From Moniliella sp. 'wahieum' (lineage: Eukaryota): DNA of 27,489 nt. Made by a program: the position numbers and the translations under genes. Below, one piece after another: positions 2,448-27,489 of the stretch. Under the pieces are notes generated by a model, which was not told the DNA's origin, did not search any database, and saw only the letters and a program-made list of their open reading frames with translations. The stretch's first letter is position 1; every line of letters begins with the position of its first letter. Location of the stretch: assembly GCA_003971905.1 (NCBI GenBank), contig RSEE01000046.1, forward strand, positions 496,001-523,489, in the 5' to 3' direction.

Positions 2448-4702
2448 ATGTCTGCTGTGCTGCTGCTGCCTCGCTGCCGCCGCCGCGCCCGCCGCCCCGG
2501 ACTACGCGGCGGCCACCGACGGCACGCGCCTCATCGCACAAGACCCGTGGCTGGAGCCCTACGCGCCCGTCTTGCGCAAGCGCCATGCCCGCTACGCCGA
2601 CAAGCAGCGCATTGCCGCCGCCGCGAGGGCAGCCTGGCCGACTTCTCCTGGGCTATCAGCGCTATGGCCTCCACCCCGACCCCGCCACCGGCGCCATCGT
2701 CTACCGCGAGTGGGCGCCCGGGCAGAGACCGCCTCGCTCATCGGCGACTTCAACAGCTGGGACCCCCACGCCAACCCCATGACCCGCGACCAGTTTGGCG
2801 TCTGGTCCGTCACCGTCCCCCCCGTGGATGGCAAGCCGGCCACCCCCACCAGTCCAAGATCAAGATCAGCATGACCACCGCTGGCGAGCGCATCGACCGC
2901 CTGCCCGCCTGGATCAACGCGTGACCCAAGACCTTAGTGTGTCGCCGGCGTACGATGCGGTGTTTTGGAACCCCCGCCCGAGGAGCGGTACGTGCTCCAG
3001 CATCCGCGGCCCAAGGCTCCCGTCGACATCAAGATCTATGAATCGCACGTGGGCATCGCCACCCCCCACGAGGCGCGTAGGCACGTACAAGGAGTTTACC
3101 CGCGACGTTCTGCCTATGATCAAGGACCTGGGGTACAACACGATTCAGCTCATGGCTGTGCAGGAACACGCGTACTACGCAAGCTTTGGTTACCAAGTCA
3201 CCTCCTTCTTTGCCCCCAGCAGCCGCTATGGCACCCCGAGGACCTCAAGCAACTCGTCGACACGGCTCACCAGTTGGGCCTCACAGTGCTCCTCGACATT
3301 GTGCATAGTCACTCGTCCAAAAATGTTCTCGACGGGCTCAACATGTTTGACGGAACGGACCACCTCTACTTCCATGAGGGCGCCAAGGGCCGCCATGACC
3401 TTTGGGACTCTCGTACATTTAACTATGGCAACTGGGAGGTGCTCCGCTTCCTTTTGTCCAATTGCCGATACTGGGTGGACGAATACGGCTTTGATGGTTT
3501 CCGCTTCGATGGTGTGACAAGCATGTTGTACACGTACGTTTCTTCTCTCCCCTCCCGCTCCTTTCTTCATACGAACTTGATTGCTGACTCTGAGCCCCCG
3601 GCCTCTCTTTTCACATGCAGACATCACGGGATTGGAACGGGCTTCAGCGGTGGATACCACGAGTACTTTGGCCCAGACGTGACGAGGAAAGCGTGTGTTA
3701 CCTGCAGTTGGCCAAACGATATGCTCCACTGTCTTCACCAAGGCTCCATGACGACCATTGCGGAGGACGTGTCGGGCATGCCGGGCTTGTGCCGCCCTGT
3801 CGCAGAGGGTGGGGGGATTCGACTACCGACTCAGCATGGCTGTGCCTGACATGTGGATCAAACTGATTAAGGAGCAATCCGACGAAGACTGGGATTTGGG
3901 CAACATTGTGTGGACGTTGACCAATCGCCGTCATGGGGAAAAGTCGATTGCGTATGCTGAGAGCCATGATCAAGCGTTGGTTGGAGATAAGGTACGTTCT
4001 CTCTTGCTTCTTCGCTTCTCCCTTGCCTTGAACTGCCTTGCAAGACTTGCTCACACACCCTCCTTTTCCCTTAGACACTTGCCTTTTGGCTCATGGACGC
4101 TGAAATGTACACCAACATGTCGGACTTGACCGAGCGGACACGGTTATTGACCGTGGCCTATCGTTGCACAAGATGATCCGCCTCCTCACTTCGGCCTTGG
4201 GCGGCGAAGGCTACCTCAACTTTATTGGAAATGAGTTTGGTCATCCCGAATGGCTCGACTTTCCTCGCGAAGGCAACGGGAACAGCTTCCTTCATGCGCG
4301 CCGGCAGTTCAACTTGGTCAAAGACGGATTGCTGCGGTACAAGTATTTATGGCTGTGGACAAGAGCATGAACGACCTCGAGACGACCTACAAATGGCTCG
4401 CTGCACCGCAGGCGTATGTGTCGCTAAAGCATGAAGCAGACCGGGTGCTGGTGTTGAGCGGGCCAACTTGCTGTTTGTGTTTAACTTTGATGCGACGCGG
4501 TCCTACACGACTATCGGGTGGGCACGGCCTGGCCGGGCAAGTACAAGGTGGTGCTCGACTCGGATGCCAAGAGGTAGGCGGGCATGGCCGCGTGGATCAC
4601 TCGACCGAATACTTCTCCACCAACTTGCCCTGGAACGGACGCGACCATTTCCTCCAACTCTACATCCCTACCCGTACCGTCCTTGTTTTGGCCCACGACT
4701 GA
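2448..4702 (+). CDS. GLC3: 1,4-alpha-glucan (glycogen) branching enzyme, GH13_8
   Basis: Peptides across frames: [94 protein letters not shown], ending LAHD-TGA. Introns 3534-3620 and 3992-4074 (GTACGT...AG) restore YTHHG and [11 protein letters not shown]. Many 1-nt frameshifts. Confidence 0.97.
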
Positions 4703-8366: not shown

Positions 8367-9298
8367 ATGTTTCCTTCTCGACGCCGTGGTGCCAATCCGC
8401 GGGGCCTGAGCTCTCGCGGCGCCGGCGCCCCGGATGCGCCCCCGCCCAAGTGCCAGCGCTGCCTCCAGCTCGGCCATGCCACTTACCAGTGCACCCGACC
8501 CCGCGTCTACGTCAGTCGCCCTACCCGCTCTCAGGCATTGGTCGATAGCCGCGCCTCCAAAAAATTGAAGGTCAAGGGCGGAGACCAGCACACTATGCCG
8601 GCCGACGACATTCACCTCCCCAAGAACGCGTACGTGTCAGCCTTCCTGCTAGCTTACTCTCCAGGCTTCTCAGACTCAACTGCATTTTTTGCTTGGGCGA
8701 AGTCTATTGTTGGAATCCCGACTCACATCTTTCCTCCTGCACTGCTTTTTTCCAGATCGGGCACGGCCAGCGCTGTTCTTGCTGCCCGCAAGGACGACCG
8801 CGCCAGTTCCCGCTCCAAGCGGCGCCGTCCCAGCTCGAGTTCGGATCGCAGTAGGAGTTCAAGCCGCAGTTCAAGCCGCAGTTCAAGCCGCAGCTCAAGC
8901 CGGAGCTCGAGCCGGAGCTCACGCTCCGATTCCCGCAGTTCCCGGTCAAGGAGCATCAGCAGCTCATACTATAGTGCTTCCTCTCGCTCTCGTTCCTTCT
9001 CGTCATCCTACGACTCGCGCTCGCATCACCCTCCGACTCTCGCTCTCCCGCTCTCCACGCCGTACTCTCAGCCCATCTCCCTCCCGCTCCCGCTCCCGCT
9101 CCCGCTCCAAATCCCCCTCTAACTCCCGCTCCAGCTCCGCTCCCGCTCTCCTTCGTCCAACGTTCTCCTGATCACAAACGCGCACGCCGCGATCGCGATC
9201 GCACCTCACCCAGCCCTGCCCCACCTCCTCGGGCGCCCCTAACGTGCAGAACCACCAGCAACGAGGACAAACAGGATCCGAAGGACAAGCAAAACTAG
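8367..9298 (+). CDS. ZCCHC10-like zinc-knuckle protein with Ser/Arg-rich tail
   Basis: KCQRCLQLGHATYQC (CX2CX4HX4C) followed by YVSRPTRSQAL. Intron 8630-8755. 12-bp SRSS coding repeats at ~8856-8918. After frameshifts the RS tail plausibly ends DKQN-TAG at 9298. Confidence 0.8.
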
Positions 9299-9731: not shown

Positions 9732-9824
9732 GGCGAGATAGCGAGTGGTTAACGCGCTGTGTTTAGGTTCCTTGGCCTACAACCGCAGTCCTCCGGGGCG
9801 TGGGTTCGAACCCCACTCTCGTCA
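9732..9824 (+). tRNA. tRNA-Leu(UAG) with 15-nt intron
   Basis: Acceptor GGCGAGA/TCTCGTC-A, D arm with AGTGGTTAA, anticodon stem CTGTG/CGCAG, anticodon TAG 9764-9766, intron 9768-9782 after position 37, long variable arm, T arm GTGGG-TTCGAAC-CCCAC. Confidence 0.93.
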
Positions 9825-12271: not shown

Positions 12272-14244
12272 ATGCCCTCTTTTGAAACCACCATGGCCAC
12301 GTCCGAGTCCACCGACAGCTCTCCCGGGATTGGGCGAAACCGCCACTCTCTCTCGTTCGTCCCGAGTCCAGTGCAACCATTTACGGGCGATCCAATACGC
12401 CAGCCAGCAAGCTGTCCAAGGACGAGCTCCGTCCTTCCTCTCGCCCTGCAAGCGCCGGACTGATCCGAGCCACCGTCAGCGCAAACGTCATTGCCGAGTC
12501 CGAGTCCGAGTGGGTGCCGACGCACCCACGCAAGCCTTATGCCCACAACGATTCCGAGTCATGGGCTGGCACTTCCACCCCATCGACTCCGGGGAAGAAC
12601 CGGTCTCCTTTTTCGTCGGGTTTTGGGGTGCAAAGACCTCGCGGTCGTACGTTCTAGAGGTATGTGTCTGCTGTACCATTTGAGGAGCAGATGAACCTAA
12701 CCATCCTCTTTTTCTGTGCCCTTCGTTTCGTTAGACTGCGACGCTAGAAAAATTAGGCGAAGGTCAAGCAGGCGGAGAACAACCAGGCGGAGCAGAGGCC
12801 GCTGTAGGAGGCGAACCTACGTTGGCACGCAAGTCATGGGTCAAGCGCCATCCCTGGTGGCTCGCTTTCCTGCTTCTTTTGCTGGTCGCCTTGGGGGCCG
12901 GGTTAGGCGCTGGATTGGGCGTAGGCTTGTCGCACAAGAACGCCTCCTCCAATGGTGCGGGCGTAGGCAGTACTCCGTCTCACTCTCATCCCGTGCCTAC
13001 CTCTTCTTCATCTTCCCCCCCGCAGCGTCGAGCACCGCGGGTCCCCCGCTCGACTCCAGCGGCAACGATCCAACCAAGATCACGCCCCTGGCACAATGGA
13101 AATGGACCAACCCCACCTCCAAGGCAATGGGGGTGAGTCTGGGTAATTGGCTTGTTCACGAGCGCTGGATCGACGAGGATTGGTGGACAAGCTATGCTCC
13201 CGATGCCGTGGACGAGTGGACTTTGCACCAGACGCTGGGAGCCAAAACCACCCAGGTGTTGGATGAGTATATGTCCACATTCATCAATGAGAGTGACGTC
13301 GAATTCCTGTGGCAAGTCGGAATCAACATGGTTCGCATTCCGTGCGCTTACTGGTTTTGGGTTCCGACCCAAGGCAACGAGCCCTACATTAACGGAACTC
13401 ACCTGAACCATCTGACTCAAATGATGGGGTGGCTGTGGAAACGCGGGATGCGCGCCGTGATTGATTTGCATCAGATGATGGGGTCCCAATCAGGTGACCA
13501 GGCCAGTGGGCAAAATACAACCTCTCCCACTTGGTGGAACTCTACTAACCAGAAGCGATCTGATGAACTGATGCAAGCGCTGGTCCAATGGCTTGAGCCG
13601 CACCCCTATCGCTCGTCCGTTGTGGCTGCCATTACGCCCGTCAATGAGCCCAACGGCCCTCTCGGCGCGACACCCAGTCATCTTCAAACGACGATGGGCT
13701 TCTACAACCGAACCTATCCCGTTCTCTCCGAAGCGAATATAACCATGTTTTTCCACCATGCCTTTGCCCCCAATCCGACTCAATACTGGCAGGGATTCGC
13801 CCAGGACAAGAATCCCGACCTGCTCGTCTTGAACGATAACCCCTATCCAGGCTTTTACCCAGCCAAGAACGACACATCCCAATCATCCAGGCAGTCTGCA
13901 GCAACGCCCACTCTTACTCTTCCTTCCCCGTCCCTACCGTCAAACTGAATGGAGCCTGATCAACGGCATTGTTGCCAACGCCACATGGAACGCGCAATAC
14001 TACTCTACTCAGGCTACCGCCTACGGTTGGTCGGGCGGTAGCTTCTTCTGGAGTTACAAGGTGATGAACTCATCCCACCGTTTTCGCTGCCTCGCCCATC
14101 TGGCAAGCACAATGGAGCTTCCTTACCCAGGTCCAGGCCGGCGCCATCCCCCGCGTCCAACAGGGCCAAAACGCTCAGCAGTTCTTAGCTTCCCTGCCTG
14201 ATCAGCCTTGCGGTGCAGGGCCGGACATGCCATGGTCTCAATAA
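12272..14244 (+). CDS. GH5 glycoside hydrolase (exo-beta-1,3-glucanase-like) with internal transmembrane anchor
   Basis: GVSLGNWLVHERWI, GINMVRIP, VIDLH, acid/base VNEP, nucleophile TEWSL (~13945), GSFFWSYK, stop after PDMPWSQ at 14244. TM segment RHPWWLAFLLLLLVALGAGLGAGLGVGL (~12847-12930). Intron with donor at 12647 or 12660 and acceptor 12734. Start codon is tentative. Confidence 0.88.
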
Positions 14245-18181: not shown

Positions 18182-18387
18182 ACGCCCAAGGCTATTGGCA
18201 TCGATCTCGGCACTGCATTCTCGTGCGTTGCTGTCTGGGAGAACGACTGGGCGACAGTCGTTTCAACAATTGGAGCAAATCCATCACCCCCTCCTGTGTG
18301 GCCTTCGACCAGAGACGGCAACTCATTGGAAATGATGTCACTCACCTCATGTTCGGGACCAATCTGGACAACACGGCGATTGACGCC
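18182..18387 (+). pseudogene. Truncated Hsp70 N-terminal fragment
   Basis: (ACG)PKAIGIDLGTAFSCVAVWEND..., frameshift, NNWSKSITPSCVAFDQRRQLIGND...NTAIDA. This matches Hsp70 AIGIDLGTTYSCV...NRTTPSYVAF...LIGD...NTVFDA. The start appears as ACG and similarity stops after about 68 codons. Confidence 0.85.
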
Positions 18388-19050
18388 TCGGTTACCCCCC
18401 TAGACGTATGTTCAAAGATTCAATAGTCCCCTGGCGCATCAAACTCGAGGCAGAGGTCATCGCCACCGGGCTAGCCCGTATGCGATACCTCAATAGTCCT
18501 GAGGCCTATGACCTATGACGTAGTCACGGCCGGGCCCGCCGGCCAGCCCGGTGACCGCCCAACGGTGACCGCCGCCTGCGAGATGTTGGCCGACGGCCTA
18601 GACATATTCCCAACTCCCGAGGGATGTCACGGGACTGGCTGGATGTCACGAGATCCTGTGATACATCTAGATGACTGGAGGGATCCCACCTGATGTATTC
18701 CAGGGTATTTTTGGCCCGGGCCGGGGGACTTCCGGGGGTGTCCTTAATTGCCCCCCCCGTTTAATTAGCACCCGCCTGCCAGCACGCTGCATCACATGCC
18801 GCGCCGCCCATGTGCAACGCCATCACCGCCACCGCCACCGCACCCCACCACCGCGCGCCACCGCCACCCCGCAGCTGCCGCTTGCCCACAGCCACCGCCA
18901 CCACCCCGGTACTGCCGCTTGCACCCCCACCACCCCACCCCCACCCCCACCACCTCTGCCACCACCCCCACCTTTCTCACCTTGCATCGTTTTCATAGCG
19001 CGCATCGTCCATACCTGCAATGGCATATAGTCCCGCCCCGTCGCTAGCCC

Positions 19051-19106
19051 CATGCCAAATTTCAGCCCAATCGGCCTGCAGACGGCCGAGATATCGCGAT
19101 TTTGGT
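19051..19106 (+). repeat. 56-bp motif, copy 1
   Basis: CATGCCAAAT...GACGGCCGAGATATCGCGATTTTGGT, 44/56 identical without gaps to 22074-22129. Confidence 0.85.
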
Positions 19107-19866
19107 ACGCGCACGCCCTCGCGTCGCGCGCGTACATGCGCCGCGTCCCGCGCAACGCCACCGCCGTCGATGGACACGCTTGCACTGCGCCTGTGTAATA
19201 AAATGTCCCGCGACCGCGACGCGCCGCATCCACGCTTTTATTTTCATCCATTTCTCAATTCTTCCCACGCGCTCGCGTCTGCTACCGCGCCATCACCCTC
19301 TCCCAACATGGCCGCCCCTCCCGACACGCCCGCTCCTACAGCTGGCTCTGGCCACGCCACTTGCCACCATCCCCCCGGGTACATCGCTCTGCAACCCCCG
19401 GCGGCCCTTCCCACCGTCCATTGCCCCCTCGGCCGCACCCTCAACCACGCGGCCAAACGCAACCACCCCTCTCCCACGTCGCCTGCGCCGCCCACCGCCT
19501 CCATCCTCATCCTCCCAATCTCCCCTCACTTCCATCCCCGGCTTGTCTCCTGCACATCTCCCCGCTCGCGGATCAAGCGGCAGCCCGACACCGCCTCGCT
19601 CCCTTCGCCCACCCGCCACCAGCCGCGACGGCGCCTGTCCTGCAGCAACGGGCCGACGGCACACTCACAGCACCCCTTCAGCCACATCCCCTGCCCCCGG
19701 CCCCGGCCCACCTCGCCTCCTGCGCCGTCCCCCAGGCCGCTCGGCCTCAGCAGCAACCGGGCACCGTCACCACCAAAATCCTCCTCTCTCCCGGCATAGA
19801 GAAGCACACTGTGCGCATTCAAGGCACCGCCCATGGTAAGCCGACCCCATCCTCCCTTCCAACCAG

Positions 19867-19916
19867 TGCTGACCACATGTCGGACCAGGCTTGCTGACCA
19901 CATGTCGGACCAGGCT
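19867..19916 (+). repeat. Perfect 25-bp tandem duplication
   Basis: TGCTGACCACATGTCGGACCAGGCT x2. Confidence 0.95.
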
Positions 19917-20049
19917 ACCAATGCTCCGCCTGCCCTACCTCTTCGCTTACGCCCGGAGCGGCTCGCAAACACGCAAGTTCATGCCTTCAACTCAAGGGCC
20001 GAATTGCCGCTTCAGTCTTCAATGACCCTTACCACCTCGTCCGTCGTTC

Positions 20050-21100
20050 GCTGCAGCCGCTCGGCTTGGATTACGACCCGACTGTGCGCCTTCTGTATTG
20101 CTCCGGCTGCAAATATTTTGTCACCGACTCGCACCTTACTTGGAATCGGATCGACTCCTTTCGCGACGCAGGCAGTCATCCGCTGCTCAACGTTGACAAC
20201 GCCAAACTTGCTCGCAAGGCCTTGCGCACCTTGCCCCACACATGTACCCCGGCAGGGATTTGAAAGACAAATTCGGCCACTTTCTTCACGAACCAGTCGA
20301 CCACATCCCCATCTCGGCTCCCAAGCAGGTGTGCAGCACATGCTTCAAGAATAAACAACCACATCCCTCTTAATGAGCACTCCCACAAGACCGGCCACGC
20401 CCCTCAATCGGTCTGGCTGACCCCAACGCGTCATGTACGGGGTAACACTTGCCATTGTCGGGCCCGGCCAACAGCCGCGATCGATGCTGCGAGGCGCCTT
20501 GATGCAGCAGCAGCTGTCCAGTCGCCCCCTCCAACCAGCCCGGTCCGCAACCGAGGAACGGATGACGATACAACGAGCAACAGATCCCGAGAGAGCGACG
20601 GATACTAGCGACACCGAGTGGAGAGACGTGGATGAGGCCAGCGACGCCGAACCGGAATGGGACGAGCCACCAGCGCGCATCCGGCCACCCACACGCACCC
20701 AGCAAGCATCCCCTTCCGTCGGCCGAAGATTGAGGGCCATCGCCGGCGACCCTATCAGTTCCGCAAGCGAGGAGAGTGAGGCAGAGTCGAGCGAGGCAGA
20801 GGCGAGCGAGGCAGAGTCGAGCGAGGCAGGCCGGCCGACGCAGTCTCCCTCGCCCTCGCCTGCCCCGCGGCGGCCGCGCAACCACCCTCCCCCAACCGCG
20901 GCGCCGCCCGATCGTCCTCATCCCCGTCCCCTGCGCGACGCCTCTCCGCCACGGCGGCCTCTGCTGACATACACCGACCTTACGCGGAGGAGGGCTCGCC
21001 CAGCTTGATGCCTCACATACCCGGGGAGGATCCGCTGACCGTTGCGGATGGCGAGCATTTCATGGGCTCCTTCCTCGCATGTGGCATGTGTCCGAGTTGA
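20050..21100 (+). pseudogene. Decayed zinc-finger gene, DUF3505 (OrsD)-like
   Basis: LGLDYDPTVRLLYCSGCKYFVTDSHL...H (20060-20180), an acidic/Ser-rich linker, then PHIPGEDPLTVADG...CGMCP (21010-21095). In-frame stops are present. Family assignment is from motif resemblance only. Confidence 0.4.
20778..20829 (+). repeat. 15-bp minisatellite (3.5 copies)
   Basis: GAGGCAGAGKCGAGC repeats encoding EAESS/EAEAS. Confidence 0.9.
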
Positions 21101-21447
21101 TGGCCGGGGTACCGCTGATGCGCTTGCCGAGATGCGGTATCTGCCAAACATGAACCTAGTCTTATATTGGCGTGTGATGAGTCCTGTCAAAACGCGGCTC
21201 AATTAGTACTGAGACAGGTATTTTAGCACAAACTGGGACACCCCACGAAAAGTCAGCCACCACAGTGTGATGGGGACCAACATGTGGTGCCTGACGTTTG
21301 GTGCTCTCACATTTCGGGTGGGGGCTGAGTCCTGGAATGCGGTATTCACGCTGTCACGCCTGGAATGTGACATGTGAGCGGGGAAAATGCGGGGTTAGAC
21401 ATGTTGTGAGGTCTGACATTTTTTGATGGCGTTCCTTGCGGAAACGT

Positions 21448-21769
21448 AGCGGGCCCTGCCACGCTGCTTGCGCCGTGCCCGGTCCCGACTCTGGCCTGTG
21501 TGTAGCCAGGGCCACGCTCCGTGGATAATCGGCAACGACGATAGGGCCATTCGCGACCAAGGTAATTGGTTGTTTTCTGGTCGAGGGCAGGTGACGGGGC
21601 GTGCCGGCCCGGACCGTGGCTAGGTGCGCTTGGTGATCGGTCCTGCATATGACCAACGAGCCGCTTGTCATAGTGGTCAGGCCTGTCTTTACCTTGCGTT
21701 CTGGGTCAATCCGCCAAGCGGGCCCTGCCACGCTGCTTGCGCCGTGCCCGGTCCCGACTCTGGCCTGTG
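21448..21769 (+). repeat. Identical 53-bp direct repeats (21448-21500 and 21717-21769)
   Basis: AGCGGGCCCTGCCACGCTGCTTGCGCCGTGCCCGGTCCCGACTCTGGCCTGTG twice, 269 bp apart. Confidence 0.95.
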
Positions 21770-22073
21770 GCCATCCGACCGCTGTCCACCGCTGTGCGCG
21801 CTGCCGGCGCAGCGCATCTGATGTTGGTGTGCGCAAACCATGAATCCAGCGCCGCCACCGCCACCACCACCGCCGCAACCCCAGCCACATCCACCACCAC
21901 ACCACTTTCACCCCCACCACCACCATGTCACCATGCTGGCCGTCTCGTGGTGAGCATCGTCCATATCCGTGCTTCATTTGGCGCTAGCACACCTCTATGC
22001 GCGTTGCCCCTGATCGTGAGGCAGATGGAGGATCTGATGCATGCTTCCAACAGTGCTTGCTCACCGTTGGTAG

Positions 22074-22129
22074 CATGCCAAATGTGAGCCAGAACGGATG
22101 AGAGACGGCTGAGATATCGCCATTTTGGT
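22074..22129 (+). repeat. 56-bp motif, copy 2
   Basis: CATGCCAAAT...GACGGCTGAGATATCGCCATTTTGGT, direct repeat of 19051-19106. Confidence 0.85.
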
Positions 22130-22299
22130 CCCGCCGGCATACGCCACCATCTCATCCCAGCATGCATCGATCCCAGCCGCTCCCGCTCAGGTGCACGCCC
22201 CATCCAAGCCTCCCGCTGCAGCGTACTCCCTCGCCTTCCACCAGGGCAGGCCTACATCGACTAACATCTGCATCTGTCCACCAGCTGAAGCGATGGTGC

Positions 22300-22930
22300 A
22301 CAGCAGGTCCAAACACGGGCAGGTGGGTGTTGATGGCGCCGCCGCTCCACCAGTTGTCGTCGGATGTCAGAGATGGTCGCGCCCCATCGTGCACTACAAG
22401 CAGGGCTTCCAGGGGAGGTAAGGCGCCCCAGGATTGGTCCAGCATTGAGGTCAGAACACGCCCCAACATCTGATGTTAGCTTGATTCGGATGAAGGTCTA
22501 TGTTGACGGTGCCGGCACAGCACCAATCTTCATCAAACAATACATTGCATACATCACAGCATGCACAGGAAGCGGCTTTCAGGAGCAGCAATGCGCTTCA
22601 GGATTGGACCAGGATTTGGGGTCACACCACATGTGAACATCAGAGGTTAGGTCCAAACAGCGGATGGTCGATGTTGATGCTGCCGGCGCTTTCAACCAAT
22701 TCTGGACGAATCAGAGATCTGTCAACGGTGTAGCGTAGCCCAGAATCAAGGCTTTCAAGATGATGATGCGCTTTTGGATTGTCCAGGATTGAGGTCACCC
22801 ACATCCAATCAGCTCAGGTGCGGTCCGACGGCGCACTGCTCGAACAAACAGCGTCGGTGACCACCAACTCGGGCGAGTCAGAGCATGAGTGGTGGCGTAG
22901 CGTGCCCCTGGTAGTCCTCTTTCAGACGCG
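22300..22930. repeat. Degenerate ~170-bp tandem repeat, 3-4 units
   Basis: Anchor GGATTG(G)WCCAGSATT...GGTCA at 22431, 22601 and 22776. Anchor ACCA...TCAGAG at ~22349, 22696 and 22863. Confidence 0.7.
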
Positions 22931-23403
22931 CACATGGTGGAGGGCAGGCGGTTGCACCACGGTGGAGAACGGGCGTGTGGCGAGGCGAGTTGGTGGGGCG
23001 GGGGCTTGTTCTAATTGGTGGCGACCGAGCTGATCTGACCGCGCAGGCTGCGCGTGCATCGGTGCAATTGCAAATGTTAATATTTTCAGCCAGCGGCGGG
23101 AATGCACTGGCCAGGCGACGGATCTGGTTGGTTTCTTACCACGCCCCCCCCCAACCCGGGGCTTTGCCCGCCCCCAAGGTCTGTTGCCTCGTTTCCCCTC
23201 GTTTTGAGCCTCCAATCTCACTTCACGCTTCCCGCGCCTCATCTGCCACCCCCAGGCCTCCGCTGACCACAGCTTCTGTCGTCTGCCCAGCTTCTGTGTT
23301 CTGCAGCCACCTCCCACCCGTCCCGGGCGGCTTTCTCACGTCCCCCTGCCTCCCCACCGCCCCAGCGCCCGCTCACCTCCCACGCACGCCCAGGCCATCC
23401 CAC

Positions 23404-23464
23404 CACTGACTCGGCCATCCCCACCATTGACTCGGCCACCATCACTATTCATTCGGCCATCCAC
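23404..23464 (+). repeat. Degenerate ~21-bp minisatellite (3 copies)
   Basis: CA(C/T)TGACTCGGCCA-type unit repeated three times. Confidence 0.7.
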
Positions 23465-24002
23465 CGTCGGGCCGGCCAAGCGGAAGCAGGGAATGGTGCA
23501 GGGGATGGTGCTGGCGTTGTGCATGCTTCTGGCCTCGGTCTGGCGTCCTGGCGTCCAAGGTCACCGTCTCGGCTGCTGCCACCGCTGCCGCGCTTGAGTG
23601 GGCCGTCTGGACGCTTGGCTTGGCCATCTGGAAGCTCGTCTGCCCATGTACCACTTGCCTCGCACCCGTCCCAGCAGACCGTGCAGCTTGCCATGCCGTC
23701 CCCGTCCGACGCTCTGCCGGCCCGTGTGCACTCGCTTGGCTGCCTGCTGTCACCTGCTTGGGATGCTCATCCGAACGCCGTCTGGGCCATGTGCAACGTC
23801 GTTCAGCAGAACGGACGCATGCCATCCCATCCATCTCCTTCCATCCCATGCCACCCTGCCTCATTCTGACCGCTCTTGCACCAGTGTTCTGCCCTATCAT
23901 CTTCCACTCCTCCCTCGTCATGCCCCCATCCCAACGCTCGCCGGGGCCATGCTCAGCTCGAGTAGCCCATGTGCAAGTACATCGTCGTGCTCTGTTGTTG
24001 CG

Positions 24003-24230
24003 TCCAAGCTTGCGCTCGCCATCAATCTTGTGCTCATCATGTCCAAGCCGCTCTTGCGCTCTCTCCCAAGCGTGTGCTCGCCACCAAGCCTGTGCTCATC
24101 ATCTCCAAGCCTGCACTCCCCATCAAGCCTGTGCTCGTCATCCCCAAGCTTGTACTCGCCACCAACCTCTGCCCATCATCTCCAAGCTGCGCCCTCCACC
24201 CACGCTCTCCATCCCCAAGCCTGCTCCCAT
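24003..24230 (+). repeat. 39-bp (18+21) dimeric minisatellite
   Basis: CAAGC-type anchors at 24005, 24023, 24044, 24067, 24085, 24106, 24124, 24145, 24163 and 24183, mostly alternating 18/21 spacing. Confidence 0.8.
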
Positions 24231-24992
24231 CTCCACGCCTCTGCTCCCTGTCTTCAACACCAAGCATGTATAGGAACATAGCAATGCATACCATCATTCA
24301 CTACCTCTCCATGCACTCTAGTACATGCACTACAGAAGCATCCGAGCACCTGTCATAGGATGTGAAGCGTACAATGACGACGACGTCGTGGGTCTTTGAG
24401 GCCACCTAACAACGACTGTCCCAGTTTGTCAAGCGCATCATGGCATGCACTTGGATAGATGATCAACAGGCGTACCAGGGCAAGTATCAACGGTGTTCCA
24501 ACGAAACAACAGCATGACTTTGGGACGGTATCAATGCCACCTTTAAGCAATGTGCTGATGCTGTTTGAGGAGCAAATGTACATTGTTCGGACAGGCGAAC
24601 TGGGTGTATACCAGCCACTTCTGCTCATGTTACAAGCACCGTAGGACCAACGATGGAGATGTTTGAACTGCCACCCACTTGGGTTTTGACGACTGATCTG
24701 AGTACGTTTGAGACGCAAATATACATTGTTGAGGATGCGAGCTAGGAGTATACTAGCACGCATACATGTTCGATCCACGTTCAACGAACATGAGAGGTGT
24801 TTGCACAGGCAATTATATGACGGTAAACAGCTCTTCTCCAATGGTGTAACAGCGAATATACGAAGTTTGCAGGCAATGTATCCGGATGTTCAAGCAAGTA
24901 TCGTTACCCACTTGGCATCTCATCCGTGGAGGAACAGCAACGACAGTCAGGATGTTTGAGCGCCGCATCAGGGCAACCGTCGAGGCATCGGA

Positions 24993-25040
24993 GGGTGGGT
25001 GGGTGGGTGCGGGGTGGGTAGGGTTAGGGATGGGGGGGTG
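24993..25040 (+). repeat. G-rich tract with (GGGT)n and GGGTAGGGTTAGGG; G-quadruplex-prone, telomere-like
   Basis: Ten runs of three or more G within 48 bp, including one TTAGGG at 25024-25029. Confidence 0.7.
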
Positions 25041-25106
25041 TAACTTTTGAAGGGTGGTCCAATCGAAAAAGGAGGCATATGCTGCAACGAGAGGACGATT
25101 TCGTCA

Positions 25107-27489
25107 GCGAGATATAGCCCTCGGCGAGCTAAAACTCTCTCCCTTCGGGTAGCGAGCTATAGCCTCGGCATAATCTCTCCCCTTGGGTAGCGAGCTATCG
25201 CCTCGGCATAACCTCTATCCTTCGGGGGGTAGCGAGCTATCGCCTCGGCATAACTCTCTCCCCTTCGGGTAGCGAGCTATGCCTCGGCATAACTCTCTCC
25301 CTTCGGGTAGCGATATCGCCTCGGCATAACTCTCTCCCCTTCGGGTAGCGAGCTATCGCCTCGGCATAACTCTCCCCTTCGGGTAGCGAGCTATCGCCTC
25401 GGCATAACTCTCCCCTTCGGGTAGCGAGCTATCGCCTCGGCATAACTCTCCCTGGTTGGTAGCGAGCTATCGCCTCGGCATAACTCTCCCTTCGGGTAGC
25501 GAGCTATCGCCTCGGCATAATCTCTCCCTTCGGGTAGCGAGCTATCGCCTCGGCATAACTCTCTCCCCTTCGGGGCGAGCTATCGCCTCGGGCATAACTC
25601 TCCCTTCGGGTAGCGAGCTATCGCCTCGGCATCGGCATAACTTCTCCCTTCGGGTAGCGAGCTATCGCCTCGGCATAACTCTCTCCCCTTCGGGTAGCGA
25701 GCTATCGCCTCGGCATAATCTCTCCCTTCGGGTAGCGAGCTATCGCCTCGGCATAACTCTCTCCCCTTCGGGTAGCGAGCTATCGCCTCGGCATAACTCT
25801 CTCCCCTTCTCTTCGGGTACGAGCTATCGCCTCGGCATAACTCTCTCCCCTTCGGGTAGCGAGCTATCGCGCCTCGGCATAACTCTCTCCCCTTCGGGTA
25901 GCGAGCTATCGCCTCGGCATAACTCTCTCCCCTTCGGGTACGAGCTATCGCCTCGGCATAACTCTCTCCCCTTCGGGTAGCGAGCTATCGCCTCGGCATA
26001 ACTCTCTCCCCTTCGGGTAGCGAGCTATCGCCTCGGCATAACTCACTCTCTCCCCTTCGGGTAGCGAGCTATCGCCTCGGCATAACTCTCTCCCCTTCCC
26101 CCTTCGGGTATCGAGCTATCGTCGAGCCTCGGCATAACTCCTCCCCCTTCGGTTAGCGACTATCGCCTCGGCATAACTCTCTCCCCTCGGGTAGCGAGCT
26201 ATCGCCTCGGCATAACTCTCTCCCCTTCGGGTAGCGAGCTATCGCCTCGGCATAACTCTCTCCCCTTTCGGGTAGCGAGCTATCGCCTCGGCATAACTCT
26301 CTCCCCTTCGGGTAGCGAGCTATCGCCTCGGCATAACTCTCTCCCCTTCGGTAGCGAGCTATCGCCGGCATAACTCTCTCCCTTTCGGGTAGCGAGCTAT
26401 CGCCTCGGCAATAACTCTCTCCCCTTCGGGTAGCGCTATCGCGCCTCGGCATAACTCTCTCCCCTTCGGGTAGCGAGCTATCGCCTCGGCATAACTCTCC
26501 CTCCCCTTCGGGTAGCGAGCTATCGCCTCGCATAACTCTCTCCCCCCCTTCGGTAGCGAGCTATCGCCTCGGCATAACTCTCTCCCCTTCGGGTAGCGAG
26601 CTATCGCCTCGGCATAACACTCTCCTCCTCCTTCGGGTAGCGAGCTATCGCCTCGGCATAACTCTCTCCCCTTCGGGTAGCGAGCTATCGCCTCGGCATA
26701 ACTCTCTCTCTCCTTCGGGTAGCTATCGCCTCGGCATAAACTCTCTCCCTCTCTCCCCTTCGGGTAGCGAGCTATCGCCTCGGCATAACCTCTCTCCCCT
26801 TCGGGTAGCGAGCTATCGCCTCGGCATACTCTCCCCTTCGGGTAGCGAGCTATCGCCTCGGCATAACCTCTCCCCTTCGGGTTAGCGAGCTATCGCCTCG
26901 GCATAACTCTCTCCCCTTCGGGTAGCGAGCTATCGCCTCGGCATAACTCTCTCCCCTTCGGGTAGCGAGCTATCGCCTCGGCATAACTCTCTCCCCTTCG
27001 GGTAGCGAGCTATCGCCTCGGCATAACTCTCTCCCCTTCGGGTAGCGAGCTATCGCCTCGGCATAACTCTCCCCTTCGGGTAGCGAGCTATCGCCTCGGC
27101 ATAACTCTCTCCCCTTCGGGTAGAGAGCTATCGCCTCGGCTAACTCTCTCCCCTTCGGGTAGCGAGCTATCGCCTCGGCATAACTCTCTCCCCTTCGGGT
27201 AGCGAGCTATCGCCTCGGCATAACTCTCTCCCCTTCGGGTAGCGAGCTATCGCCTCGGCATAACTCTTCCCTTCGGGTAGCGAGCTATCGCCTCGGCATA
27301 ACTCTCTCCCCTTCGGGTAGCGAGCTATCGCCTCGGCATAACTCTCTCCCCTTCGGTAGCGAGCTATCGCCTCGGCATAACTCTCTCCCCTTCGGGTAGC
27401 GAGCTATCGCCTCGGCATAACTCTCTCCCCTTCGGGTAGCGAGCTATCGCCTCGGCATAACTCTCTCCCCTTCGGGTAGCGAGCTATCG
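25107..27489 (+). repeat. Tandem array of a 40-bp unit (about 59 copies), runs off the window end
   Basis: Consensus CGGGTAGCGAGCTATCGCCTCGGCATAACTCTCTCCCCTT. An exact 40-nt period is visible at 26900-27060. Variation is mostly indels in the CT/C tract. No unique spacers. Confidence 0.98.

What the first reader, a model, noticed from the sequence alone, without database searches (positions are those of the whole stretch)
25107..27489. Terminal 40-bp array: candidate non-canonical chromosome-end system
Seen: about 59 near-identical 40-bp units extend to the window end after 7 kb of gene-free relic DNA, with no TTAGGG array visible. The unit contains GGGTAG (GGGTTAG in the copy near 26880). Proximal units are more variable than distal ones. 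Against a simple telomerase product: 40 nt exceeds the yeast telomere units I know (up to roughly 25-30 nt) and the + strand is C-rich (15 C vs 9 G). Inference: an exceptionally long telomere repeat, a recombination- or retroelement-maintained cap, or a subtelomeric satellite in front of an unassembled TTAGGG tract.
Basis: partly seen in the sequence, partly recalled or inferred. Interest (0 to 1): 0.8.

Follow-up and report, generated by a model that had tools for sequence, protein, structure and literature searches.

The report
Forty-base repeat array beside decayed telomere
A fungal DNA piece ends in about 59 copies of a 40-base repeat that starts just outside a short, decayed stretch of ordinary telomere sequence; it is most likely repeat DNA near a chromosome end where an error-rich assembly stopped, not a proven new kind of chromosome cap.

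Summary
The array is real. It has 58.8 copies of a 40-bp unit at 25107/25133-27489, all in one orientation, and the unit occurs nowhere else in the window.

- A 46-nt degenerate telomere-like G tract (…GGGTAGGGTTAGGG…) lies 68 bp before the array, in the polarity of a right-end telomere.
- The assembly is full of indel errors: 16 frame breaks in the 2.2-kb glycogen-branching-enzyme gene. The unit variation is about 90% indels, so "proximal units more variable" is unsafe.
- A June 2026 paper (PMC13234504) describes telomerase-free Microstromatales yeasts whose chromosome ends are end-specific 41-178-bp arrays.

This window does not fit that family on three counts.
- Its host groups with Tilletiaria, outside Microstromatales.
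- Its outward strand is C-rich, not G-rich.
- Its unit is not among the published motifs.

No genome and no reads were available, so whether the array is terminal stays untested.

Best reading (0.55): a telomere-associated array added outside an old telomere, possibly the 3'-side repeat block of a telomere-targeted retrotransposon, with the assembly breaking off inside it. A true telomerase-free cap remains possible (about 0.15).

Other agents of this scan noted a retrotransposon stack and a candidate telomerase RNA elsewhere in this genome, on other DNA.

The parts
18400..24992 (.). Flank without a recognisable protein domain. It holds small internal duplications and minisatellites and reads as subtelomere-like, gene-poor DNA.
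   Evidence: No credible Pfam hit in the frames that overlap this stretch: all hits were below the curated cut-offs, best E 0.018. Codon-phase GC signal is weak. Duplications about 3 kb apart and a 39-bp minisatellite at 24066-24187 are present. Frameshift errors in the assembly limit this test.
24993..25038 (+). Degenerate telomere-like G tract: GGGT x4, GC, GGGGT, GGGTA, GGGTTA, GGGAT, G7. It is G-rich on the strand that runs 5'->3' toward the window end, the polarity of a right-end telomere. I read it as a relic of a former telomere.
   Evidence: It is the largest G-run cluster in the window, with 9 runs; the other clusters have 4-5 and are not T/A-spaced. The sequence is shown. TRF lists a period-15 repeat at 24997-25040.
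25039..25106 (.). 68-bp unique spacer between the telomere-like tract and the array. On the minus strand it would be the 3' tail of an element that ends against the C-strand telomere tract.
   Evidence: It has no similarity to the unit on either strand: local score 12 on each strand against shuffle means of 10.9 and 11.9, and 104 (+) and 165 (-) of 300 shuffles score as high.
25107..27489 (+). Tandem array of a 40-bp unit (consensus as at 26905-26944), 60% G+C. It has a degenerate first unit, then 58 complete units and a truncated last one that runs into the window end.

Best explanation
The array is a real 40-bp minisatellite in a chromosome-end region of an Exobasidiomycete fungus related to Tilletiaria. 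It lies 68 bp outside a short decayed telomere tract. The DNA from 25039 outward was therefore most likely added onto a former chromosome end (inference).

The simplest source is a telomere-targeted non-LTR retrotransposon of the MoTeR/FoTeR/Cnl1 kind lying on the minus strand. Its 3' tail would abut the C-strand telomere tract, a repeat block would sit near its 3' end, and its 5' end would point to the chromosome tip. Failing that, the array is a plain telomere-associated satellite spread by recombination.

The error-rich long-read assembly stops inside the array. The real tip, whether more elements or ordinary TTAGGG repeats, lies beyond the window (inference). Most of the unit-to-unit variation is sequencing or consensus error rather than age.

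Within this reading I give the retrotransposon version about 0.25 and a plain satellite about 0.3.
For: Shown here:
- The array and its sharp start at 25107.
- The telomere-like tract at 24993-25038, in right-end polarity.
- No recognisable domain in the last 6.7 kb before the tract.
- Small duplications and minisatellites in that flank.

Assembly quality:
- 16 frame breaks (13 one-base deletions, 2 insertions, 1 two-base deletion) plus 2 introns in the 2.2-kb branching-enzyme gene. That gene otherwise reads 76% identical to Tilletiaria over 666 columns.
- The GH5 gene changes frame without an intron-sized gap.
- In the array, indel bases outnumber substitutions 114 to 12, and 72 of the 114 lie in the CT-rich first third of the unit.

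Host: the branching enzyme is sister to Tilletiaria anomala with 99/99 support. The paper lists Tilletiaria among Exobasidiomycetes with canonical repeats, Est2 and Tpp1 (PMC13234504 section 20).

Retrotransposon layout, from PMC12857005 (passages and section 19):
- FoTeR and MoTeR1 sit with the 5' end toward the chromosome terminus.
- Their 3' ends are followed by 3-7 C-strand telomere repeats.
- They carry variable tandem repeats, the largest array in MoTeR1 lying near its 3' end.

Unchecked earlier notes of this scan: a stack of MoTeR/Cnl1-type elements at another contig end of this genome (e1-7648826), a candidate telomerase RNA (e1-7641912), and another contig ending in a satellite (e1-7649786).
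Against: - Nothing beyond the array is seen, so 'not terminal' is inferred, not shown.
- No reverse transcriptase or endonuclease relic was found anywhere in the window, although for the proposed orientation the ORF would lie beyond the window end.
- The by-sequence look-ups of earlier findings found no look-alike of the unit or of 21500-25132. The retrotransposon stack noted elsewhere in this genome therefore does not visibly share this tail or unit, if that stretch is indexed.
- Only 2.4 kb of array is assembled. Long reads should cross an array that short, which fits a truly terminal array as well as it fits a very long or multi-copy one.
- Units are cleaner distally (10 of 20 perfect) than proximally (3 of 19). 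A consensus that thins out toward a broken contig end would show the opposite.
- The G tract could be low-complexity DNA rather than a telomere relic.
Confidence: 0.55

Rival explanations
1. The array is the true chromosome cap: a telomerase-independent, recombination-maintained (ALT-like) terminal array of the kind published for Microstromatales. It would have arisen independently in a Tilletiaria-related lineage, and the decayed TTAGGG-like tract would be a fossil of the lost canonical telomere.
For: - PMC13234504 shows that such ends exist in the same fungal class (sections 18-20 and 22). The motifs are 41-178 bp, the arrays 1.6-21.6 kb, mostly end-specific and BAL-31 sensitive, and Est2 and Tpp1 are absent.
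- The window's 40-bp unit and its array of at least 2.4 kb fall at the edge of those ranges.
- The unit was found nowhere else: not in the window, nor in the earlier-findings index.
- The unit carries a GGGTAG core in G-strand polarity.
- A short assembled array at a contig end is what a truly terminal array gives.
Against: - The host is outside Microstromatales. It is sister to Tilletiaria at 99/99 support. Forcing it to join Microstromatales costs 27 log-likelihood units, AU p 0.014, but this is one gene and the group was named after the tree was seen.
- The paper reports canonical repeats, Est2 and Tpp1 for Tilletiaria and the four other non-Microstromatales Exobasidiomycetes it examined.
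- The outward strand is C-rich (15 C, 9 G). The published motifs are written outward, start with GGG, and the paper calls that strand G-rich.
- The unit is not among the published motifs: 4 short search terms gave 0 hits.
Confidence: 0.15
2. The array is an internal satellite unrelated to a chromosome end. The contig simply breaks at a tandem repeat, and the G tract is chance low-complexity DNA or an interstitial telomere-like sequence.
For: - The assembly is fragmented (at least 69 pieces carry notes) and of low consensus quality.
- Another contig of the same genome is reported to end in a 676-bp satellite (unchecked note e1-7649786).
- No canonical telomere array is seen in the window.
Against: - The G tract has T/TA/TTA spacers, contains GGGTTAGGG, and points outward.
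- The flank has lacked recognisable domains for 6.7 kb and carries a truncated HSP70 start. This fits a subtelomere.
Confidence: 0.15
3. The array is made by telomerase from an RNA with a 40-nt template, an exceptionally long telomere repeat.
For: The unit contains TTCGGGTAG, a one-base variant of a telomere repeat, in G-strand polarity. The array is uniform in orientation.
Against: - The outward strand is C-rich.
- Unit length varies from 37 to 52 nt, although part of that is error.
- From my own recall, not checked here, the longest known templated units are about 25 nt, in budding yeasts.
- All basidiomycete telomeres discussed in PMC13234504 are TTAGGG-like or telomerase-free.
- No 1-1.5-unit lone copy exists in this window.
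Confidence: 0.02
4. The array is a sequencing or assembly artefact, for example a concatemer or chimeric read at a contig tip.
For: The contig tip has a poor consensus, with about 4.8 indel bases per 100 nt against about 0.7 frame breaks per 100 nt in the branching-enzyme gene.
Against: - The array starts with a degenerate unit that merges into unique DNA.
- From recall, the unit matches no adapter that I know.
- Several variant units recur.
Confidence: 0.03

Closest known systems
[quoted passage not shown]
   Same: Same fungal class (Exobasidiomycetes). A kb-long homogeneous tandem array of a unit tens of bp long sits at a sequence end, with no TTAGGG array in view. The unit has no match elsewhere.
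   Different: The host is outside Microstromatales. The outward strand is C-rich rather than G-rich. The unit is 40 bp, just under the published 41-178 bp. A telomere-like relic survives next to the array, whereas the paper reports complete erasure. Terminal position, BAL-31 sensitivity and loss of TERT and Tpp1 are all untested here.
Telomere-targeted non-LTR retrotransposons MoTeR1/2 (Pyricularia oryzae), FoTeR (Fusarium oxysporum) and Cnl1 (Cryptococcus); PMC12857005, PMC7367193
   Same: The layout fits on the minus strand: a repeat block near the 3' end, a short unique tail, then a few C-strand telomere repeats, with the 5' side pointing to the chromosome tip. An element of this kind is reported at another contig end of this genome (unchecked note e1-7648826).
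   Different: No reverse transcriptase or REL-endonuclease sequence is seen. About 59 copies (2.4 kb or more) is far more than the repeat blocks listed for FoTeR elements (a few hundred bp). No second copy is available for comparison.
Ordinary subtelomeric or telomere-associated tandem repeats, e.g. the helicase-associated repeats of Pyricularia oryzae chromosome ends (PMC1635262)
   Same: Short tandem repeat blocks next to telomere sequence in gene-poor terminal DNA.
   Different: Those blocks lie proximal to a live TTAGGG tract and are shared by many ends. Here the array lies distal to a decayed tract, and sharing among ends is untested.
Type I survivors of telomerase-null Mycosarcoma (Ustilago) maydis, which amplify UTASa, and similar ALT-type amplification of subterminal repeats (as discussed in PMC13234504)
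   Same: Amplified subterminal repeats take over the chromosome end.
   Different: Those are laboratory mutants and use kb-scale elements. Nothing here shows loss of telomerase.

Membership tests
Microstromatales-type noncanonical telomeric arrays (PMC13234504) | The array forms the physical chromosome terminus (BAL-31 sensitive; long reads end in it). | not testable with these tools
Microstromatales-type noncanonical telomeric arrays (PMC13234504) | The genome lacks TERT (Est2), Tpp1 and TTAGGG-like arrays. | not testable with these tools
   Only the window can be read. It has no tandem TTAGGG but does hold a degenerate telomere-like tract. An unchecked note reports a candidate telomerase RNA.
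Microstromatales-type noncanonical telomeric arrays (PMC13234504) | The host belongs to the order Microstromatales. | tested here: not met
   In the branching-enzyme ML tree of 29 rows the window is sister to Tilletiaria anomala at 99/99, and the 6 Microstromatales rows form a 100/100 clade without it. The AU test of the joint clade gives p 0.014. This is a single gene read through 16 frame breaks.
Microstromatales-type noncanonical telomeric arrays (PMC13234504) | Unit of tens to about 180 bp in a homogeneous array of 1.6-21.6 kb. | tested here: met
   The unit is 40 bp and at least 2.38 kb is assembled. The published ranges are 41-178 bp and 1.6-21.6 kb.
Microstromatales-type noncanonical telomeric arrays (PMC13234504) | The strand running 5'->3' out of the chromosome is G-rich. 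| tested here: not met
   The outward (+) strand of the unit has 15 C and 9 G (counted by hand). The published motifs are written outward, start with GGG, and the paper calls that strand G-rich.
Telomerase-synthesised telomere repeat | The unit is copied from a template in the telomerase RNA (a lone 1-1.5-unit copy inside an RNA gene). | not testable with these tools
   No copy lies outside the array in this window, and the rest of the genome is not available.
Telomerase-synthesised telomere repeat | The G-rich strand carries the 3' end. | tested here: not met
   The outward strand is C-rich (15 C, 9 G).
Telomere-targeted non-LTR retrotransposon (MoTeR/FoTeR/Cnl1 kind) | An ORF with reverse transcriptase and a restriction-enzyme-like endonuclease. 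| tested here: inconclusive
   No RT or endonuclease hit appeared in 148 frames scanned against Pfam (97 of 70 aa or more covering 13.8-25.2 kb; 51 of 40-69 aa covering 18.2-25.2 kb). In the proposed orientation the ORF would lie beyond the window end.
Telomere-targeted non-LTR retrotransposon (MoTeR/FoTeR/Cnl1 kind) | The 3' end is followed by a few C-strand telomere repeats and the 5' end faces the chromosome tip. | tested here: met
   The minus strand reads array, 68-nt tail, then about 9 degenerate CCC(T)(A)(A) repeats. This matches the FoTeR junction description. It is a match of layout only.
Telomere-targeted non-LTR retrotransposon (MoTeR/FoTeR/Cnl1 kind) | Several copies, found only at chromosome ends. 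| not testable with these tools
   No genome is held. The earlier-findings index showed no look-alike of the unit or the flank.
Subtelomeric / telomere-associated tandem repeats | A tandem array directly beside telomere repeats in gene-poor terminal DNA. | tested here: inconclusive
   The array is beside a decayed telomere-like tract in the right polarity and a domain-free flank. No live terminal telomere is seen.
Subtelomeric / telomere-associated tandem repeats | The same repeat is shared by several chromosome ends. | not testable with these tools
   No genome is held.

The most novel reading that the evidence does not exclude
A second, independent lineage of Exobasidiomycetes (Tilletiaria-related, outside Microstromatales) caps at least this chromosome end with a telomerase-independent 40-bp array. 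Unlike the published cases, the outward strand is C-rich. The array sits right next to a surviving fossil of the ancestral TTAGGG telomere, which would catch the switch from canonical to noncanonical ends in the act.
Probability: 0.15. Interest if true: 0.75.

Novelty: new member of a known kind. Interest (0 to 1): 0.35.

Why it matters
If the array is only subtelomeric repeat DNA or a retrotransposon's repeat block, it is an ordinary feature of fungal chromosome ends. Its main value is then as a warning that this assembly is indel-rich and breaks at tandem repeats.

If it proves terminal, it would show that the telomerase-free, end-specific repeat caps just described in Microstromatales arose more than once in smut relatives. 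It would also provide a chromosome end where the old telomere relic and the new array lie side by side, which would help in working out how such caps start.

Tried and rejected
- **Whole genome:** none is held for this window, so copy number, polarity at other ends, TERT and the telomerase RNA could not be checked.
- **Sequencing runs:** none was listed for 21000-27489, and no RNA holder was listed, so read laying could not be used.
- **Exact scans for the unit:** 0 hits in metagenome contigs with a 32-nt pattern, 0 in genome contigs with a 24-nt pattern, and 0 papers for an 18-nt term in the full text of the paper library.
- **Earlier-findings index by sequence:** 0 look-alikes for the array and for 21500-25132.
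- **Published motif tables of PMC13234504:** 0 hits for a 15-nt and a 12-nt piece of the unit on either strand. By eye, one 130-bp P. phylloscopi motif shares a 9-nt stretch around GGGTAGCG. I estimate about 0.8 such matches by chance, so I give it no weight.
- **RNA families:** only a tRNA at 9732-9824 reaches threshold. The array gives only sub-threshold snoRNA and SRP noise, with E 0.8 or worse. There is no rRNA, so an rDNA-spacer origin has no support.
- **Folding of three units as DNA:** the + strand gives z -0.25 and the - strand z -3.3. This shows no convincing structure, and I did not pursue it.
- **Local origin of the unit:** the spacer and the 24300-24992 flank show no similarity to it.
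- **Six-frame Pfam scan across stops:** I scanned the shorter open frames instead.
- **CCCGAA:** the reverse strand of the unit contains this hexamer, which I recall as a MoTeR 5' variant repeat. I did not check this, and a hexamer in 40 nt is weak evidence.

Full report
**1. Observation**

Tandem Repeats Finder reports one dominant array at 25133-27489: period 40, 58.8 copies, 90% matches, 8% indels, score 3723. My own segmentation gives 58 complete units and a last unit cut at 31 nt by the window end. 21 of the 58 equal the consensus.

A 23-nt half of the unit occurs 48 times at up to 3 mismatches, 42 times exactly. All copies are on the + strand and inside the array, against 0 expected in 100 shuffles. 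The unit has 15 C and 9 G and contains GGGTAG. One copy, starting at 26865, reads GGGTTAG. No tandem TTAGGG or CCCTAA of two or more units exists in the window.

**2.

(a) At 24993-25038, 68 bp before the array, lies the largest G-run cluster of the window. It has nine G runs spaced by T, TA, TTA or AT, including GGGTAGGGTTAGGG. It is G-rich on the strand that runs toward the window end, as a right-end telomere would be. I read it as a decayed telomere tract. That is an inference; it could be low-complexity DNA.

(b) The spacer at 25039-25106 and the flank at 24300-24992 show no similarity to the unit. The array therefore has a sharp proximal edge and was not visibly amplified from neighbouring DNA.

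(c) The assembly is rich in indel errors.
- A frameshift-aware alignment of the window's glycogen-branching-enzyme gene (2515-4696) to two relatives needs 16 frame breaks and two introns. The breaks are 13 one-base deletions, 2 one-base insertions and 1 two-base deletion. The protein otherwise reads 76% identical to Tilletiaria over 666 columns.
- The GH5 gene also changes frame without an intron-sized gap.
- Earlier notes on other windows of this genome say the same (e1-7726984, e1-7642143).

In the array, differences from the consensus are 12 substitutions against 54 deleted and 60 inserted bases. 72 of those 114 indel bases lie in the CT-rich first third of the unit. Perfect units rise from 3 of 19 (proximal) to 8 of 20 and 10 of 20 (distal). 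With this error profile I would not read that gradient as age.

**3. Surroundings**

Recognisable genes, most of them in broken frames, run up to about 18.3 kb:
- branching enzyme
- an RRM protein
- a zinc-knuckle protein
- GH5 glucanase
- a short-chain dehydrogenase
- a rhodanese domain
- a 26-residue HSP70 start

From 18.4 to 25.1 kb none of the frames scanned gave a credible Pfam hit. I scanned 97 frames of 70 aa or more and 51 frames of 40-69 aa, and the best E was 0.018, below the cut-offs. Codon-phase signal is weak there. The stretch holds small duplications about 3 kb apart and minisatellites. "Gene-poor" is fair. "Gene-free relic" is not proven, because frameshift errors blunt the test. 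Rfam finds only a tRNA in the window and no rRNA.

**4. Who is the host?**

No genome is held. The nearest named relatives of the GH5 protein are Tilletia species at 45-49% identity. I built a maximum-likelihood tree of the branching enzyme from 29 rows. The window's protein was read through its frame breaks with X.
- The window is sister to Tilletiaria anomala at 99/99 support.
- The six Microstromatales rows form their own 100/100 clade.
- Forcing the window to join that clade costs 27 log-likelihood units, AU p 0.014.

Caveats: this is one gene, the reading was guided by the Tilletiaria protein, and the group was named after the tree was seen. A second reading guided by a Parajaminaea protein differs only near the breaks and at the ends.

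**5. What is known**

A literature search brought up Brejova et al., NAR 2026 (PMC13234504). I read the abstract, sections 13, 18, 19, 20 and 22, and parts 1 and 4 of the supplement. Its findings:
- Four Microstromatales yeasts lack TTAGGG repeats, Est2 and Tpp1.
- Their chromosomes end in mostly end-specific tandem arrays of 41-178-bp motifs, 1.6-21.6 kb long.
- For J. angkorensis, the arrays are BAL-31 sensitive and come with telomeric circles and TERRA-like RNA.
- Tilletiaria and four other non-Microstromatales Exobasidiomycetes are listed as having canonical repeats, Est2 and Tpp1.
- Motifs are written 5'->3' out of the chromosome. Those I saw start with GGG, and the paper calls that strand G-rich.

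The window's unit fits in size (40 bp) and in array length (at least 2.4 kb). It fails in three respects: the host, the strand bias (C-rich outward), and identity with any listed motif (0 hits for 4 short terms).

A second body of work concerns telomere-targeted retrotransposons. I read passages and section 19 of PMC12857005. FoTeR and MoTeR1 sit with the 5' end toward the chromosome tip. Their 3' ends are followed by 3-7 C-strand telomere repeats. They also carry variable tandem repeats, the largest array in MoTeR1 lying near its 3' end.

Read on the minus strand, the window shows that same order: array, 68-nt tail, then about nine degenerate C-strand telomere repeats.

Against this reading:
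- No reverse transcriptase is seen, although it would lie beyond the window.
- The earlier-findings index shows no look-alike of the tail or the unit.
- 59 copies is far more than the repeat blocks listed for FoTeR.

**6. Verdict**

The array is real and sits in what looks like a chromosome-end region. I could not test whether it is the end. No genome and no reads were available, and the unit is absent from the two contig collections scanned and from the paper library.

| Reading | Weight |
|---|---|
| Telomere-associated array added outside an old telomere, where the assembly stops | 0.55 |
| of that, retrotransposon repeat block | about 0.25 |
| True telomerase-free cap of the Microstromatales kind in a second lineage | 0.15 |
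| Internal satellite at an assembly break | 0.15 |
| Telomerase-templated 40-nt unit | 0.02 |
| Artefact | 0.03 |

Its "long telomerase repeat" has no support. The decisive data are the raw long reads, and a whole-genome search for the unit, TTAGGG arrays, TERT and Tpp1.

Noticed in passing
window 2515-4696 (+): The glycogen-branching-enzyme gene (GH13) needs 16 frame breaks (13 one-base deletions, 2 insertions, 1 two-base deletion) and two introns to be read. The protein is otherwise well conserved, so this looks like uncorrected long-read indel error at about 0.7 breaks per 100 nt.
   Followed up: yes
window 13019-14241 (+): The GH5 glucan beta-glucosidase gene changes frame twice within 400 nt without intron-sized gaps. 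The nearest relative is an unnamed Logan protein at 80% identity; named relatives are Tilletia species at 45-49%.
   Followed up: partly
window 9732-9824 (+): A 93-nt tRNA hit (Rfam, 39.8 bits). ARAGORN gives it an odd four-base anticodon, 'tagg', probably because of an intron or an indel error.
   Followed up: no
window about 18190-18270 (+): A lone 26-residue match to the very start of HSP70 (…AIGIDLGTAFSCVAVWEND…) with nothing of the rest of the gene after it. It is a truncated gene fragment at the inner edge of the domain-free flank.
   Followed up: no
window 18806-19106 and 21847-22129; 21448-21500 and 21717-21769; 19867-19916: Diverged duplicated segments lie about 3 kb apart. There is also a perfect 53-nt repeat 269 nt apart and a perfect 25-nt tandem duplication in the flank.
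   Followed up: no
window 24066-24187 (+): A 39-bp minisatellite with 3.2 copies at 80% matches, built of 18-21-nt CCAAGCCTGTGCTC-like subunits, lies 0.9 kb before the telomere-like tract.
   Followed up: no
window 8859-9148 (+): A zinc-knuckle (zf-CCHC_3) protein frame carries a long Ser/Arg-rich tail encoded by 12-nt and 6-nt repeats.
   Followed up: no
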